In this document: piece by piece, positions 9,942 to 64,000 of the stretch
Numbering within the stretch: position 1 is the stretch's first letter
How the letters are laid out: each line of letters starts with the position of its first letter
Position numbers and translations under genes: made by a program
Source of the DNA: a virus
Taxonomy: Duplodnaviria > Caudoviricetes
IMG/VR virus record: IMGVR_UViG_3300036794_000053
Coordinates: 42,198-106,197 of that record
Strand: one strand, 5' to 3'
Length of the DNA: 64,000 nt
Notes under the pieces: generated by a model
Databases searched by the model: none
Told to the model about the DNA's origin: nothing
The model's input: only the letters and a program-made list of their open reading frames with translations

Positions 9942-10043
9942 TCCAAAGTGGACGCTGGGCGCGCTCCTATGTGGACGGACGCGGGTGTCCTATGTGGACT
10001 CGCGGCGTGTCCTATGTGGACGCCAGAGCGGTCCTATGTGGAC
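9942..10043. repeat. Five iteron-like direct repeats, period 22-23 bp
   Basis: TCCTATGTGGAC at 9965, 9988, 10010, 10032 plus variant TCCAAAGTGGAC at 9942. Confidence 0.9.
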
Positions 10044-10220
10044 ACACCTACCCTCGGGGGGTATCGGGGAGGTTAGGGTACACTCCCCCCCACCCAGGCC
10101 AGCCTAGCCTAACCCAGGGCAAGGGTTCTTGACCGTTCGCGTTTTTGCTGTTCAGGCGTGCCCTGTTTTTTCTGCGCGCGTGCGTGAGCTGCCTGGTGTT
10201 GGTGTGTAGCCTGTTGTGTT

Positions 10221-30654: not shown

Positions 30655-33600
30655 ATGGCCGGGCTACACCTCGAAGTCACAGCGGAAGATTGCCGCCCCG
30701 CTGACACCATGCGAAGGGTCGGCGAAGCGGTTCGGGAATTGAGCCGTGAAGACTTACGCGAGGATGTCGAGGTTGAAGCCGCGGAAGACGCGGCCCGGCG
30801 GTTGGCGAGGGTGCGTGAGGCGTGGGCCGGCTCCTCACGCACCGTCAAGTTTGAGATCGAAACCGAGGACGAGTCCGAGGAGAAGATCGGGTCTTACCGC
30901 CGCGCGGTGCAGGGTTTGGCCAAAGAGTTCGACGTCATCGGCATGACCAGGCACACCGTCATGGTCGACGGCGGGTTGTTGCGCCGCGCGTCCGGTGACA
31001 TGGACGAGTTCTCCCGGCAGGTTGACCGTGGTCGTGTCATGGTGCGCGCAATGGGCGAATCGGCGGACGCCGCCGGTGACGGTCTGGATGTGTATTCGGG
31101 TTCGTTGCGGGCGGGTGAGCGGGACACCCGTTCTTTGGTGGGGGCTCACGCGGATGCGGAACGCAGTTTCGCGGAAAGCACTTCCCGCATGGACGATATC
31201 GGGTCGCGTCTGAATGTTGTGGGTAAGGCCGCGGATTACGAGTCGCCGCTAGATCGCGGTGGCGTTCCTTCATTTGGGTCGGCGCCGTCGGAACCACGGG
31301 TGCCTGCTTTAGCTGGCGCCGGTGGTCAGGCTCCGCGTGGGGCGCAGATGACCAGGTATTACAGGGCGCCGCAGAAAGCGCGGCCTCGTTCCCCGGAAGA
31401 CCCGAAGGATCGGGCCGCGCGCCGTGCTGTGGTTCGGGAGGCTGAGCGGATAATGCGGGGCGGGGGACCACCTCAGGGGCCTCGTAAGCCACCCGGCCCC
31501 CCTAGTGGCGGTTCCGGTGGCACTCCCGGCGGCGGCGATGAGTCGTTCAATGAGCGGAGGCTTCACCACTTTCTGGGCAGCGAAGACTTCGAGGCGGAAA
31601 TGGAGAAGGAGCGCCAGCGGTTGCTGGAGGAACGCCGGAATGAGGCGCTTCAGCGCGCAATCGAACGCGGCAAGGACCTTCCCCGGCCTGATGCTGATAT
31701 GCAGGTGCCGCCGGCTACGGTGGCACCCGGCTCCGAGGAAGCGTTGGGTCGGACACGGCAACAGCCGAGCCCAGGGGAAGTCGCTGACGCCACCCAGGAG
31801 AAGCGGGTGCCGCGGTCTTCCCCGCAGGAGGACTCTTTAGAGAAAGCCCGTAGAGAAGCTGGCGAGAAACTGGACCAAGCCTTCGAGAAGTACAAGAAGG
31901 AGCATTCGGAGGAGAGTCTTAGGGAATGGGCGCGCGCCCAGGCGCACTACGACGTCGCAAGGGCAAACCTGCGGGATGCCGCCAACAAATTGCCTCCTGC
32001 CCCACCGAGCGCGCCTAGCCCGCCCGTGCAGCCGAGTGCGCCCAAACCGCCTGTGCAGCCGAAGGCCCCGAGCGTGCCCCCTACGGGTGGTGGCGCGGGC
32101 ACTGCGCCGGCCCCACCTGCGCAGCCGGCGCCTCCCGCGCAACCTCCCCCAGCTGCCCCGCCCAGCGCGCCCCAACCCCCTGCTGCGCCCCCGGCGCCCC
32201 CGGCTCCCGCGGAACCTCCTCCGTCCCAGCCGGTTCCTCCGCGTCCTGCCGATCAACCTCCGGCTGGTCCTCCAGCTGAACCGTCGGCCGGAGGACCGCC
32301 GCCTACAGCCGCCGGGGGTGAGCGCGGCGGGGGTGGGGGTAAGGAACCTGGTCCGTTCGAACGGGAAGCGCAGGCGTTCAAGTCCAGCCTTGGCGCGGGC
32401 ATGGTCAGTGGTTTCCTGGCTGGGACGGCCACCATGGTTAGCGCCATGGCTGGTTTGGCCGAAGCCAAAACGGTGATCAAGAACACCGGCGAGTTGAAGA
32501 ACGCTTTTAGCGACGCGAAGGCCGAGTTCGCCAAAGGCATTCGAGACAACGCGAACGCTAACCTTGACGCCGGATTCGCACCCCAACTGGAACACCTGGG
32601 TGATTCGTTTAACCAGTTCGGCAAGAGTCTGGAACAGACCGGCCAGTCTATGTTGTCGACGGCAGCTAATCTTTTGAACCAAGGGGCGGCGCAAGCCGCT
32701 ATCTCCAGTGCGGCGCTGCGGCCTATCATGCCCGGTGCCGGCGCTAGCTTGGGTAACACCATTGACTCGCTGCTCGGCGCGGTGTCGTCACAGGCTTCCA
32801 TCGCGGGCCAGAAGAGCGCCATTGGCGGTTTGACCAGCGCCGACGATCAGTCGGCCATCTCGGATATCGCCGGTGGCCTCATCGGCGTTGGTGGCCCAGC
32901 GCTGAAAGCGGTGGCGGACATTGCTGGGATGGTCGACAGCGCGTTCGGCGGCGGGTTCGAAGATGAGTCTCAGAAGTTCGCTGCCGGCATTTCCGTTGCC
33001 GCTGGTGCGCGCGCGGGTTGGGTAGCCGGCGGCCCGGTGGGTGCGCTGGCCGGCGCCGGCCTTGGCCTTCTCACCCAGCTCCAGCAGGGGCAGGGGCAAC
33101 AAGACACCACCCAAGGTCTGCTTACCGCGGCTGGGGGCTACGGACTTGGCAAGGCTTTCGGGCTCAAGGGCGGCGCGTCGATGCTTGTCGGTCTCGGGGC
33201 CGATTTCCTGACGTCTGAGGTTTCGCTACCGCCCGAGTGGGAAGACACCGCTCAGAAAGCCGTGCAGGGCGGCGGCCTGGGGGCGGTCCTAGGTAACGCT
33301 CTCTTCGGGGGGAAGGGCGCGATCGCGCTCGGTCTCGCTGGCGCTCTCCTCAATGCGCAGGATTCCGCCGGGGCCGCGATGGGACTCACCTCGAAGTCTG
33401 GTTGGGGGAAGATCGGCAGCTCGGCTGAGTCGGGACTGCTGGATTGGGTGAAGGACGCGGGGCTCGGCGTCCAGGGCGCGCATGAGGCGTTCGGTCAGGA
33501 CTTCGCTTCGTTCCGGCAGGGTGTGGCGGACGTAACGCAAGGACCGCTGCAGGACATTGCCGGCGCCGCTCACGACCCAATCGATCAGGCGGTGTTTGGC

Positions 33601-61288: not shown

Positions 61289-61503
61289 GCCCAGACCCCG
61301 ACGGCATCGAGCGCCCTCACTGGGACCATCTGACGCCAAAGCAACGCCGTGAAATGTGGGACCTCATCGAGACCCACGCACGTCCCTTCCTGCAGCCACG
61401 CACCAGGTTGTCGGAGGAAACCCTCGATCGGCTCAGCGCGTTGATCCGCCGATTCCGCATCGAGGACGCACACAAGAGCACAGACAACAGAGAGGCCAGC
61501 TGA
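61285..61503 (+). CDS. Hypothetical protein
   Basis: ATGA coupling. Confidence 0.6.
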   Translation: MSPDPDGIERPHWDHLTPKQRREMWDLIETHARPFLQPRTRLSEETLDRLSALIRRFRIEDAHKSTDNREAS

Positions 61504-61505
61504 CA

Positions 61506-62405
61506 GTGGCTGCGGTTGAAATCGCCGACGGCGGGAAAGTCATATGGGGGCCCTTGACCGACGTCAAGGTGCACCCAGCCGCAACACTGTTCCCGCTCCT
61601 CGAAGGCCCCGAATTCGAGGCACTCGTCGAAGACATCCGCGTGAACGGGCTCCACGAACCCATCGTGTACACCCCAGACCGGCAGCTACTAGACGGGCGG
61701 AATCGGTACTGCGCGTGCAAGCAGATCGGTGTGACACCGCAGTCCAAGGTGGTCAACCTCGAACCGTGGGCGTACGTCATCTCCACGAACATGCGGCGCC
61801 GGCACCTCACGGATAGCCAGCGGCAGATGGTTGCCGCAAAGTTCGCCGAGCGCATGGCGGGACGGCCGCGGAAAATTCGGCCAATTGGCCGAATTAATGA
61901 AGAAACCGCTGATCAGCCGCCCACGCAGGAGGAAGCGGCGGAACTCCTCAACGTCAATCCCCGCAGCGCACGCCGAGCGCGGACCGTGGTCAGGCGCGGC
62001 ACTACGGCACTGAACAACGCCGCGTATGACAACAAGGTCTCGGTGTCTAAGGCCGCGGAGATCGCCAAGCTTTCCGTTGAGGAACAGAACGAGTGGGTCG
62101 CGCAAGTCAACCGAGGCGCCGATTCACGGCGGCTACCTGTGCCGCACGCGGAACCGCAGGAACCGCCGAGGCGGATGGGTCATAGTCCGGATCGGCATAA
62201 GTGGGTCCGCGCGTCGTCCTTCCACGAAGTCATCGCGCTCCTTGAAGGCCTCGGGCTGGTACTTGACGGCGCAACGAACGGACTCGATCCGCACATCAGT
62301 CCCCTGGACGCCGAGTATTTGGAGTCCAGTCTCACCAAAGCACACGGCTCCTATAGCCGTGCGTTGAAACTCCTCAGAGCAAGGATGAAGGAACCCGCAC
62401 AATGA
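61506..62405 (+). CDS. ParB/Srx-like N-terminal domain plus HTH protein
   Basis: 'HPAATLFP', 'LVEDIRVNGLHEPI', 'LLDGRNR', 'NMRRRHLT', 'TQEEAAELLNV'. Confidence 0.85.
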   Translation: MAAVEIADGGKVIWGPLTDVKVHPAATLFPLLEGPEFEALVEDIRVNGLHEPIVYTPDRQLLDGRNRYCACKQIGVTPQSKVVNLEPWAYVISTNMRRRHLTDSQRQMVAAKFAERMAGRPRKIRPIGRINEETADQPPTQEEAAELLNVNPRSARRARTVVRRGTTALNNAAYDNKVSVSKAAEIAKLSVEEQNEWVAQVNRGADSRRLPVPHAEPQEPPRRMGHSPDRHKWVRASSFHEVIALLEGLGLVLDGATNGLDPHISPLDAEYLESSLTKAHGSYSRALKLLRARMKEPAQ

Positions 62406-63199
62406 GTCACTACGAGATTCTGAACGTAGCCGCTGACAAGCTGATCGTAGATACCACGGTCCAGCGTGACTACATCGACAGGCGGCGAGTAGAGAAGATC
62501 GCCGCAGCCTACGACCCCGACGCGTTGGGTGTGCTCATCGTGTCCGACCGCGCCAACGGCACCATGCACATTGTTGATGGTGCGCATCGCCGGGCGGCCA
62601 CTCAGCTCGCGGTCGGGGACGACGCGAAACTGCAATGCAAGGTGTACTACGGCCTGACCCGCGCGGAAGAGGCGTCGATGTTCCGCGCCCTCAACACCAC
62701 CCGCACCGTGTCCGCGCTGGATAAGTTTAGGGTTCGCATCATCGAGGGCGATATCGCGGCGGTGCAGATCAGCAAGGTGCTGGAACGGTACGGCTGGAAG
62801 ATTCAGCTGGCCCGCACCACCGGCTCCTTCAACGCCGTCTCGGCCATCGAAGAGGTCTACTCGGGTGGCCGACTCGGCCAGGAACGCAACGTTGGTGTGG
62901 TGGAGACCCTGGTTTCGGTTCTGGGGCAGGCGTGGGGTCCTACCCCTGATGGGGTGCGGCGGGAGATCGTGTCGGGCGTCGGATCGATCCTGCTGCGCCA
63001 CGGCAACGGGGTTGACCTGCCGAAGTTGACGACTGAGTTGTCGCAGTACAGCGGCGGCCCGCTTGCTCTGTTGGGTGCGGCGCGTGGTTTGCAGAAGCAC
63101 CGTGGTGGTCGGGTCAGCGATTCAATGGCGGAGATCGTGATTGGTTTGATCAACAAGGGCCGCCGCACCAATAAGTTGCCTGACTGGCGCGAGGACTAA
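62402..63199 (+). CDS. ParB-like protein (DUF6551-like)
   Basis: 'VQR...VEKIAAAYDPDALGVLIVS.R', 'IVDGAHR', 'EEASMFRALN'. Confidence 0.8.
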   Translation: MSHYEILNVAADKLIVDTTVQRDYIDRRRVEKIAAAYDPDALGVLIVSDRANGTMHIVDGAHRRAATQLAVGDDAKLQCKVYYGLTRAEEASMFRALNTTRTVSALDKFRVRIIEGDIAAVQISKVLERYGWKIQLARTTGSFNAVSAIEEVYSGGRLGQERNVGVVETLVSVLGQAWGPTPDGVRREIVSGVGSILLRHGNGVDLPKLTTELSQYSGGPLALLGAARGLQKHRGGRVSDSMAEIVIGLINKGRRTNKLPDWRED

Positions 63200-63268: not shown

Positions 63269-63805
63269 ATGAGCAGGGACTTCCATGTAGAGATGCGTAA
63301 GCTGATCGACGAGGCTATCGGCCGCGGCCCCTACGTGCCACGCAAGTTGGCCACGGAGATCGTGGAGAAGCTGCGGGCCACTGACCCTGAGCTGCTGGAA
63401 GGGTGGTTGGCTGAGCAGGCCGAACACTTCATCTGGCAGGCGATCAATGATCGAGACAGGGCCGTTCGGGCGCATCTTCGTCACACCCATATGCGTGGGG
63501 TGTTCGCCGACGCCGCCCAAAAGTTCGAACAGGGCGACAAGAAAGCCCTTGAGGACTTCCTCGGTATGCCGTTCACCATAGCCGACGGTTCACGCCACCG
63601 ACTTGAAGAACTCAAACGCGACGATCTACTATATGTGGGGGATCGGTATGAGCAGCGTGAACGCCAAAACGGAATGATGAAAATCTTCATGCGGGAGCTC
63701 GCAAAAAAGGTCGGCAATTCAACAGTCGGCCAGGTCTACACAAACGAGCAGCTCAAGCAGATGTTCGATTCATTCGGTTTAGGAGGTGACATTCCCAGCG
63801 GCTGA
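63269..63805 (+). CDS. Hypothetical protein directly upstream of the pentamer array
   Basis: AGGAG RBS; 178-aa helical protein. Confidence 0.75.
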   Translation: MSRDFHVEMRKLIDEAIGRGPYVPRKLATEIVEKLRATDPELLEGWLAEQAEHFIWQAINDRDRAVRAHLRHTHMRGVFADAAQKFEQGDKKALEDFLGMPFTIADGSRHRLEELKRDDLLYVGDRYEQRERQNGMMKIFMRELAKKVGNSTVGQVYTNEQLKQMFDSFGLGGDIPSG

Positions 63806-63809
63806 CAAA

Positions 63810-64000
63810 CGACAGGCCTTGCCACGCCCACCCCCGTCCCGCCCCGCCCCGACTACCCAGCCCAACCCTCGCCAGCCCAGCTCGTTCCGACTTCCCACGC
63901 CCACCCCCCACAGCCCAGTCCGCCCCGACATTCCGTTCCTGCCCTTGCCAACCCCCTCCCCTCCCGACGACCCGGTCCAAGTTCAGCCCTACCCTCTCCG
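63810..64000. repeat. Nested repeat array: ~38-nt units of GAC+(NNNCC)x7, truncated by the window edge
   Basis: CGAC at 63810, 63850, 63888, 63926, 63965; between them, pentamers nearly all ending in CC. Confidence 0.85.

What the first reader, a model, noticed from the sequence alone, without database searches (positions are those of the whole stretch)
63810..64000. Nested pentamer-coded array: GAC+(NNNCC)x7 units, a possible non-contiguous guide or binding code
Seen: starting 5 nt after a stop codon, the sequence parses as GAC|aggcc ttgcc acgcc caccc ccgtc ccgcc ccgcc cc|GAC|taccc agccc aaccc tcgcc agccc agctc gttcc|GAC|ttccc acgcc caccc cccac agccc agtcc gcccc|GAC|attcc gttcc tgccc ttgcc aaccc cctcc cctcc c|GAC|gaccc ggtcc aagttc agccc taccc tctcc g... 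Unit length (38-40 nt) and the CC register are fixed while the other 2-3 bases of each pentamer differ between units. Simple slippage would homogenise the units, and period 5 is not a codon pattern. Inference: an array of small RNAs in which a protein oligomer grips the constant dinucleotides while the variable bases specify a target. I recall pentamer-periodic RNAs being linked to phage RAMP/Cas7-like proteins but cannot verify that, and no such gene is recognisable inside this window. Alternatives: a parS-like site for the adjacent ParB-like proteins, or a G-quadruplex element on the G-rich strand.
Basis: partly seen in the sequence, partly recalled or inferred. Interest (0 to 1): 0.85.

Follow-up and report, generated by a model that had tools for sequence, protein, structure and literature searches.

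The report
Phage VIPR guide-RNA array, C-rich type
The odd five-base-periodic stretch is real: it is one half of a guide-RNA array of a VIPR system (a CRISPR-related, phage-borne gene silencer first described in 2026), and its Cas7-like partner gene lies just across the contig break.

Summary
Window 63811-64000 parses as GAC plus runs of five-base units, and lag-5 and lag-38 self-similarity exceed all 5000 shuffles.

The window ends at the end of a 106-kb viral contig. The same array continues on the same strand at the contig's start. It is followed there by a 235-aa gene whose predicted fold is Cas7/Csm3-like.

In 97 related loci from actinomycete phages and prophages, arrays of this kind are C-phased on the strand of that gene. 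In 17 of the 18 loci examined closely, one lies just upstream of it. A conserved 178-aa gene (window 63269-63805) precedes the array.

This matches the VIPR systems described in 2026 preprints: a Vipr RAMP filament on an RNA of five-base repeats, in which two variable bases per repeat read DNA and every third target base is skipped.

- Across relatives, the two variable bases are better conserved than the bases beside them.
- One relative's guide has 103 exact skip-one matches in viral contigs (under one expected), all in a portal-gene motif of small actinophages.

Still open:
- The window's own guides have no target above chance.
- No RNA data exist.
- The RNA strand is inferred: C-rich sense strand, about 65%.

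Earlier agents of this scan reported the same kind of system on other DNA.

The parts
63269..63805 (+). 178-aa gene (p178), the conserved upstream neighbour of the array; candidate Vipr-accessory (vap-like) gene
   Evidence: A homologue lies upstream of the array in 15 of 18 related loci; in one of them (L020) it sits between the arrays and the Cas7-like gene (alignment A2). The AlphaFold model has pLDDT 88.8 and is all-helical. No fold match: best Z 4.3, Foldseek E above 2. No Pfam, NCBIfam or PADLOC family; only a weak phrog_4604 hit.
63811..64000 (+). Window part of the VIPR-type guide array: four complete units and one cut unit. The array continues at contig bases 1-165.
   Evidence: Period-5 and period-38 structure. 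The same unit heads occur at the contig start on the same strand. Equivalent internal arrays occur in relatives.
63811..63850 (+). Unit 1: GAC plus 7 pentamers plus 2 extra C (40 nt)
   Evidence: Parse.
63851..63888 (+). Unit 2: GAC plus 7 pentamers (38 nt), a candidate guide with 7 variable dinucleotides
   Evidence: The exact skip-one scan of viral contigs gave only chance-like hits.
63889..63926 (+). Unit 3: GAC plus 7 pentamers (38 nt), a candidate guide
   Evidence: The scan gave chance-like hits in unrelated proteins.
63927..63965 (+). Unit 4: GAC plus 7 pentamers plus 1 extra C (39 nt), a candidate guide
   Evidence: The scan gave chance-like hits in unrelated proteins.
63966..64000 (+). 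Unit 5: doubled GAC head, irregular register, cut by the contig end
   Evidence: An independent Logan contig of the same soil run continues 319 nt past base 64000.

Best explanation
The stretch is the first half of a VIPR-type guide array of an uncultivated soil actinophage. The array fills the whole gap between a conserved 178-aa gene (63269-63805) and a 235-aa Cas7-like 'Vipr' gene. The contig happens to be broken inside the array, so the second half and the Vipr gene sit at the contig's other end (contig bases 1-165 and 223-930).

Each unit is one guide: a GAC triplet followed by about 7 five-base repeats, modal length 38 nt. Each repeat holds two free bases (positions 1-2) and a constrained triplet that ends in an invariant C.

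By analogy with the published VIPR mechanism, Vipr protomers are inferred to polymerise along the RNA, one per repeat. They would hold the constrained triplets and present the free dinucleotides. These would pair with double-stranded DNA while every third target base is skipped, silencing genes of competing phages or other mobile elements.

Shown here: the array grammar, the Cas7-like predicted fold, the conserved gene-array-gene module, selective conservation of the free dinucleotides, and a skip-one natural target for a relative's guide.

Inferred: transcription and processing, protein binding, silencing, and the RNA strand. I favour the C-rich sense strand at about 65%, co-transcribed with the flanking genes and cut at the junction before each GAC.
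For: - Grammar: GAC plus n pentamers in the window and in 136 related arrays.
- Array split by the contig break: the window ends at the contig end. The same array is at the contig start on the same strand. The DNA runs on 319 nt in another assembly of the same run.
- Partner protein: AlphaFold model pLDDT 79.7. Foldseek top hits are all Cas7-family: type VII Cas7 at E 7.7e-8, then Csm3 and gRAMP. VIA-align gives Z 10.4 and 9.6. Phage RAMP hits in BFVD reach E 1e-10. A weak Csm4 G-loop hit appears in PADLOC. At least 1383 homologues exist, all unnamed, in actinomycetes.
- Synteny: an array lies just upstream of the gene in 17 of 18 loci. In 97 loci, C-phased arrays on the gene's strand total 52.8 kb, against 3.2 kb of short G-phased runs. 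The p178 gene is conserved in 15 of 18 loci.
- Published system: Vipr RAMP plus five-base-repeat vrRNAs, the skip-one rule, and non-GGY variants. The SUSP1 locus was re-read.
- Code: homologous guides in different loci keep positions 1-2 (79% identity) better than positions 3-4 (64%). This comes from an odd/even test that avoids selection bias, with 22 pairs against 3 in the shuffle.
- Target: a nine-repeat guide shared by L042 and L076 has 103 exact skip-one matches in IMG/VR, with under 1 expected. In the 80 loci inspected, the skipped bases vary and the match reads as the antisense of the peptide motif GVPPHLLM. The ORFs tested are portal genes (PF04860) of about 16-17 kb high-GC actinomycete phage contigs. 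Skip rules 0, 2 and 3 gave no recurrent hits in that set.
Against: - The window's own guides have no match above chance in their own genome, in the relatives or in IMG/VR.
- The constrained triplet is not GGY. It is nearly free at its first base and C-rich, and the units lack the conserved 3' tail of the studied type II vrRNAs.
- Sequence similarity to the studied SUSP1 Vipr is not significant (hhalign E 0.093). p178 shows no similarity to SUSP1 Vap1.
- The family-level target evidence comes from relatives' arrays, not from this window.
- The strand is unsettled. Read on the opposite strand, the repeat is G, G/A, n, N, N. That keeps the published order of constraint (first G strongest).
Confidence: 0.85

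Rival explanations
1. Same VIPR system, but the guide is the G-rich RNA made from the minus strand, antisense to the Vipr gene. This would be the published NNNGG-type repeat.
For: Read on the minus strand, the repeat is G (95-97%), G/A, n, N, N. That is the same order and gradient of constraint as the published G1-G2-Y3-N-N. The discovery paper lists NNNGG, YNNNG and NNNNG variants. A double-stranded target site is the same whichever strand is the RNA, so the portal match does not discriminate.
Against: - In SUSP1 the repeats are on the same strand as vipr. Here that strand is the C-rich one in essentially all 97 loci.
- The array starts 2-10 nt after the stop of p178. In 15 of 17 loci it ends within about 50 nt of the Vipr gene match, often abutting its ribosome-binding site. 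A sense transcript through the array therefore seems unavoidable, and a minus-strand promoter would have to sit inside the Vipr coding region.
- In the G-loop alignment, the SUSP1 residues that read G1 and G2 (D177, W178) are Ala and Thr/Ser here. The residue of the pyrimidine pocket (R179) is kept.
- On the minus strand the third position would be mostly purine, unlike every published variant.
Confidence: 0.3
2. A DNA-level element: clustered binding sites (parS or iterons) for the adjacent ParB-like proteins, a packaging site, or a G-quadruplex-forming tract on the G-rich strand.
For: Two ParB-like/DUF6551 genes lie just upstream. The contig breaks in the array. The minus strand has GG every 5 nt.
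Against: - The ParB-like genes are not conserved beside the array in relatives. Only p178 and the Cas7-like gene are.
- Array length and content change freely between relatives, from 300 to over 1000 nt, while the five-base phase is kept.
- Two freely varying bases per repeat that are selectively conserved between homologous units, and that spell a foreign portal motif, are not expected of a protein-binding iteron or a G4 tract.
- The DNA continues past the contig end, so this is not a physical genome end.
Confidence: 0.04
3. A low-complexity proline-rich coding region, for example the frame open from GTG 63786 to the contig end.
For: All three + frames are open across the C-rich tract in the window. 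In most related arrays at least one frame stays open.
Against: - Periodicity is 5 and 10, with no excess at 3 or 6.
- Unit lengths of 38, 33, 43 and 39 nt are not multiples of 3, so no repeated peptide is kept.
- 22 of 62 long arrays have stops in all three frames.
- Conservation follows pentamer positions, not codon positions.
Confidence: 0.02
4. A C-rich, G-poor unstructured leader that only serves as a Rho-loading or regulatory region for the downstream gene.
For: The composition, C above 50% and G about 15%, on the sense strand of a co-directional gene run resembles Rho utilisation sites. This comparison rests on my own knowledge, not on a test.
Against: It does not explain the strict five-base phase, the GAC punctuation at 3 mod 5, the selective conservation of positions 1-2, or the exact portal-motif matches.
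Confidence: 0.04

Closest known systems
VIPR systems, type II of Escherichia phage SUSP1 and the Pseudomonas fulva prophage clade (bioRxiv 10.64898/2026.04.26.720920 and .720927; 10.64898/2026.10.15.759431)
   Same: - A stand-alone small RAMP with an RRM core, a helical insertion and a G-rich loop.
- Phage-borne, with one small accessory gene beside it.
- A non-coding array of five-base repeats with three constrained and two hypervariable positions.
- At family level, targets are read with one base skipped, the skip falls on codon wobble positions, and the target is a gene of competing phages.
   Different: - The constrained triplet is n-Y-C on the gene's sense strand instead of GGY.
- Guides are short, 5-11 repeats with a mode of 7, against 9-16.
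- Guides abut head to tail with only a GAC triplet between them. They have no promoter of their own and no conserved 3' tail or pseudoknot.
- The array lies inside an operon-like run between the accessory-like gene and vipr.
- The accessory-like p178 is unrelated in sequence to Vap1.
Non-canonical VIPR arrays: NNNGG, YNNNG and NNNNG repeats and 'staggered' arrays (10.64898/2026.04.26.720920); GAC/NN, CAC/NN, WGT/NN and TGH/NN cores (10.64898/2026.10.21.760802)
   Same: Period 5 with a relaxed or different fixed triplet beside a Vipr-like fold, and arrays of directly abutting guides. Read on the minus strand, this array would be an NNNGG type. GAC, used here as the unit head, is a published fixed triplet.
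   Different: The held text of these papers does not mention actinomycete hosts, and their figures and tables are not available to me. I therefore cannot tell whether this clade is one of their seven types. A C-rich reading and GAC used only as a punctuation mark are not described in the text I could read.
Type III and type VII CRISPR-Cas backbone (Csm3/Cmr4/Cas7 filament on crRNA)
   Same: Best structural matches of the 235-aa protein. One protomer per RNA repeat step, with thumb-mediated interruption of pairing (established for Cas7; stated for Vipr).
   Different: No repeat-spacer CRISPR array in the window. No other cas family among the neighbouring genes tested. Period 5 with 2 paired bases, instead of period 6 with 5 paired bases.
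TIGR-Tas tandem interspaced guide RNA arrays
   Same: A phage-associated, non-CRISPR guide array with short split spacers (as summarised).
   Different: TIGR arrays have an 18/36-nt period and a Nop-domain effector. Here the period is 5 and the partner is a RAMP.

Membership tests
VIPR | Stand-alone small RAMP (Vipr): RRM core, G-rich loop, thumb and helical bundle, outside a cas operon | tested here: met
   Cas7/Csm3-like predicted fold. A G-rich loop near the C-terminus is invariant in the family. The neighbouring genes tested have no cas family hits.
VIPR | Adjacent non-coding array of tandem five-base repeats with three constrained and two hypervariable positions | tested here: met
   Positions 1-2 carry about 0.03 bits of information, and position 5 is C in 95-97%. 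The array abuts the gene in 17 of 18 loci.
VIPR | Canonical GGY fixed triplet | tested here: not met
   The triplet is n-Y-C on the sense strand, or G-R-n on the other strand. The papers accept related consensus motifs, so this does not exclude membership.
VIPR | Variable dinucleotides read DNA with one target base skipped, and natural targets lie in competing mobile elements | tested here: inconclusive
   Met for relatives' guides: 103 exact portal-gene matches against under 1 expected, and a second guide on a motif YVTLAEL in 8 loci. Not met for this window's guides, whose hits are chance-level only.
VIPR | Array transcribed into small RNAs that co-purify with Vipr | not testable with these tools
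It needs small-RNA sequencing and a Vipr pull-down.
VIPR | Accessory vap gene beside vipr | tested here: inconclusive
   p178 is a conserved neighbour, but it has no recognisable fold or family and no similarity to SUSP1 Vap1.
VIPR | Sequence homology to an experimentally studied Vipr | tested here: inconclusive
   Profile against SUSP1 Vipr gives hhalign E 0.093. The alignment is colinear from helix 1 to the G-loop but not significant.
CRISPR-Cas class 1 | Repeat-spacer array with repeats of about 23 nt or more, plus further cas genes | tested here: not met
   No such array in the window. The unit head is only about 3-10 nt. The neighbouring genes tested lack cas hits.
TIGR-Tas | Nop-domain effector and an 18/36-nt array period | tested here: not met
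   The partner has a RAMP fold, and the period is 5.
ParB-parS partition site | Repeated palindromic sites co-conserved with the ParB gene | tested here: not met
   The ParB-like genes are not found beside the arrays in relatives, and the units are not palindromic.

The most novel reading that the evidence does not exclude
In this actinomycete-phage clade the guide is the pyrimidine-rich sense strand. The accessory gene, the array and vipr would be one transcript. It would be cut before each GAC into tail-less guides of about 38 nt. Vipr would grip an n-Y-C triplet in which only the last C is fixed. This would be a minimal VIPR form with guides under 40 nt and a changed base-recognition pocket: the G-reading Asp and Trp of SUSP1 are replaced by Ala and Thr/Ser.
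Probability: 0.55. Interest if true: 0.6.

Novelty: new member of a known kind. Interest (0 to 1): 0.45.

Why it matters
VIPR was described only in 2026, and it has been studied in two Gram-negative clades with G-rich, tailed guides. This locus belongs to a large clade in soil actinomycete phages and prophages (at least 1383 proteins, all unnamed). Its arrays are C-rich on the gene's strand, lack tails, and consist of guides of about 38 nt packed end to end.

If the sense strand is the guide, the clade shows that the protein's grip on the fixed triplet can be re-specified. It would also show that a guide of seven repeats is enough, which is useful for engineering compact DNA-binding tools.

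The portal-gene target found for a relative's guide suggests that these phages use the system against small competing actinophages. The contig break inside the array is also a practical warning: such arrays break assemblies and separate the array from its effector gene.

Tried and rejected
- blastn of the region against isolate phages: no match. tblastn of the Cas7-like protein found only one isolate, Microcystis phage Mae-JY09 at 31% identity.
- Sequencing runs: no RNA holder listed, only two soil DNA runs. Laying the contigs showed only that the DNA continues 319 nt past the window end, so expression and strand could not be examined.
- Promoter and terminator consensus scans around the array: nothing beyond shuffles.
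- Own guides under skip rules 0-3 against the own genome and the relatives' loci: only the array itself, no self-target.
- Two eight-repeat guides from the contig start, scanned exactly in IMG/VR: 9 hits each. These are scattered over unrelated viruses and frames, which is the chance level.
Their high-GC hits lie in unrelated proteins with different flanking peptides. No hits in the small-phage set.
- A second conserved relatives' guide had 0 IMG/VR hits.
- Dinucleotide composition of the free positions against codon positions: no better than uniform, so uninformative.
- A seed-and-extend test with 15-nt seeds was swamped by low-complexity matches. It was replaced by the odd/even test.
- The stop-codon test of the ORF rival is not decisive, because C-rich DNA rarely has stops.
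- p178: no fold match and no family.
- hhalign to SUSP1 Vipr and to Vap1: not significant.
- No supplementary tables of the VIPR paper are held, so the clade's published type could not be looked up.

Full report
**Observation.** The last 190 bases of the window are 56% C. They parse as a GAC triplet followed by five-base units. Self-identity at lags 5 and 38 is 0.51 and 0.52, against about 0.38 expected from composition. No mononucleotide shuffle out of 5000 reached either value. Tandem Repeats Finder also reports periods 5 and 38.

**The array is split by the contig break.** The window is the last 64 kb of a 106,197-base IMG/VR virus record, so base 64000 is the contig end. The first 165 bases of the same contig carry the same C-rich units with the same CGAC heads on the same strand. 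An independent Logan contig from the same soil run continues 319 nt past base 64000, so this is an assembly break and not a genome end. Directly after the array at the contig start lies a 235-aa gene with a good ribosome-binding site (L002:223-927).

**The partner gene has a Cas7-like fold.**
- The protein has no Pfam, PHROG or NCBIfam family.
- It has at least 1383 homologues, all called hypothetical. They occur in soil metagenomes and in Pseudonocardia, Nocardiopsis, Streptomyces, Actinomadura, Streptosporangium and Streptacidiphilus genomes.
- An AlphaFold model built from 24 sequences has pLDDT 79.7.
- Every top Foldseek match is a Cas7-family RAMP: type VII Cas7 at E 7.7e-8, then Csm3 and gRAMP. 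VIA-align gives Z 10.4 and 9.6 for the same families.
- The best viral matches are phage RAMP proteins, at E 1e-10. PADLOC gives a weak Csm4 hit on the G-loop region.

**The module is conserved.**
- In 17 of 18 related loci, a C-phased array lies just upstream of the gene on its own strand. In 15 of the 17 it ends within about 50 nt of the gene match.
- Over 97 loci, arrays phased on C in the gene's strand total 52.8 kb. Short G-phased runs total 3.2 kb and look like noise.
- A homologue of the window's 178-aa ORF (63269-63805) precedes the array in 15 of 18 loci. The ParB-like genes further upstream are not conserved there.
- The 178-aa protein folds confidently (pLDDT 88.8) as an all-helical protein without a recognisable fold. 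It is not a RAMP.

**Grammar of the array.** In 136 arrays, 556 of 1375 CGAC-to-CGAC spacings are 3 mod 5, where 275 are expected, and a further 306 are 4 mod 5. The modes are 38, 33, 39 and 43 nt. A unit is therefore GAC plus n pentamers, sometimes plus one C, with n most often 7. Within pentamers, positions 1-2 are free, position 3 is C in 55%, position 4 is C or T in 84%, and position 5 is C in 95%.

**What is known.** A note from this scan pointed me to the name VIPR, and I then read the papers. The discovery paper and its structural companion describe phage-borne Vipr proteins, which are small RAMPs related to Cas7. They describe vrRNAs made of GGY/NN pentamers. Vipr protomers polymerise along the RNA, one per repeat, hold the GGY bases, and present the NN bases. 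The NN bases pair with double-stranded DNA while every third target base is skipped. Natural targets are competing phages and satellites, with the skipped base on codon wobble positions. The papers also report related consensus motifs (NNNGG, YNNNG, NNNNG), 'staggered' arrays of abutting guides, and seven types with six accessory genes. A language-model survey adds the cores GAC/NN, CAC/NN, WGT/NN and TGH/NN. I re-read the SUSP1 locus: its GGY repeats lie on the same strand as vipr, each with its own promoter and tail.

**Does this clade use the same code?** Two tests were possible.
- Conservation. Guides that are homologous between loci are far more frequent than in shuffles (35 against about 2). 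Many keep every free dinucleotide while the neighbouring positions differ. To avoid selection bias, I chose pairs on odd-numbered pentamers and scored the even-numbered ones, and then the reverse. In 22 pairs (3 in the shuffle), identity was 0.80 and 0.78 at positions 1-2 and 0.64 and 0.63 at positions 3-4. Positions 1-2 have the lowest chance identity. The free dinucleotides therefore carry the selected information.
- Target. A nine-repeat guide shared by L042 and L076, converted by the skip-one rule, has 103 exact matches in IMG/VR, where under one is expected. In the 80 loci inspected, the skipped bases vary. The match is the in-phase antisense of the peptide motif GVPPHLLM, about residue 290 of a protein of about 400 aa. 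That protein is an HK97-type portal (PF04860, E 1e-64 to 1e-69 in five of five tested). The contigs are mostly 16-17 kb with 55-71% G+C, and their portals have close relatives in Salinispora and Jiangella. All nine dinucleotides take part, including the first one after GAC. In that target set, a second relative's guide hits a motif YVTLAEL in eight loci. Skip rules 0, 2 and 3 give no recurrent hits.

**The window's own guides.** They have no self-target and no match above chance in IMG/VR or in the small-phage set. With 14-16 fixed bases and exact matching only, this search has little power.

**Which strand is the RNA?** This is not shown.

For the C-rich sense strand:
- The array begins 2-10 nt after the stop of the upstream gene and often runs into the ribosome-binding site of vipr. 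All neighbouring genes point the same way. A sense transcript therefore seems unavoidable, and an antisense promoter has no obvious place.
- In SUSP1 the repeats share the strand of vipr.
- In the non-significant but colinear alignment to SUSP1 Vipr, the residues that read the two guanines (D177, W178) are Ala and Thr/Ser here. The Arg of the pyrimidine pocket is kept.
- On the sense strand, the base just 5' of the free dinucleotide is a pyrimidine, as in all published cores.

For the G-rich strand:
- Read that way, the repeat is G, G/A, n, N, N. This has the published gradient of constraint, and it would be the published NNNGG type.

I put the sense strand at about 65%.

**Rivals.** A parS or iteron site, a G-quadruplex tract, a Rho-loading leader and a proline-rich ORF all fail on the same points. 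None explains the strict five-base phase with 3-mod-5 punctuation, the selective conservation of two bases per repeat, or the portal-motif matches. There is also no period-3 signal, and unit lengths are not multiples of three.

**Verdict.** It is a member of the VIPR kind published in 2026, from a large actinomycete-phage clade. The held text of the papers does not let me say whether this clade's features are already catalogued. Those features are a C-rich sense strand, a fixed triplet reduced to one invariant C, and GAC-delimited tail-less guides of about 38 nt. Other agents of this scan reported the same kind of system on other DNA. I tested the fold, the orientation and the code myself.

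Noticed in passing
window 32005-32290: A second C-rich tract with 9-30-nt tandem repeats. It reads as a proline/alanine-rich coding repeat inside a long ORF, with period 3-type repeats. It is not a pentamer array.
   Followed up: partly
window 61356-63199: Two adjacent ParB-like genes just upstream of p178: a 349-aa protein (phrog_21315 and ParB-like phrogs) and a 265-aa DUF6551/ParB-like protein. They are not conserved beside the arrays of relatives.
   Followed up: partly
L120-L199 (IMG/VR contigs): A large family of high-GC viral contigs of about 16-17 kb with an HK97-type portal whose close relatives occur in Salinispora and Jiangella. They look like very small actinophages or satellites, and they are the target of a related phage's guide.
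   Followed up: partly
L009:3123-4663: One relative has p178 and the Cas7-like gene but no pentamer array within 4 kb. A small ORF fills the gap instead. Its array may lie elsewhere or may be lost.
   Followed up: no
L008:5213-6896; L012:7335-7602; L021:7073-7486: Some relatives carry further C-phased arrays downstream of the Cas7-like gene, so loci can have several arrays.
   Followed up: no
alignment A1, columns 92-108: Some family members (for example P0018, P0045, P0112 and the L008 protein) have a Cys-rich insertion after the conserved NGFKR motif. It may be a zinc ribbon.
   Followed up: no
L002:933-1142: A 69-aa gene directly after the Cas7-like gene has a weak CcdA-antitoxin-like (ribbon-helix-helix) hit at E 0.002. 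It could be a small DNA-binding regulator.
   Followed up: no
PP395641.1 37788-38456 (Microcystis phage Mae-JY09): The only isolate phage in the collection with a relative of this Cas7-like protein (31% identity), annotated as hypothetical. It may be a cyanophage VIPR.
   Followed up: no
window 9965-10045: A 22-nt tandem repeat, 3.6 copies at 83% match. Not examined.
   Followed up: no
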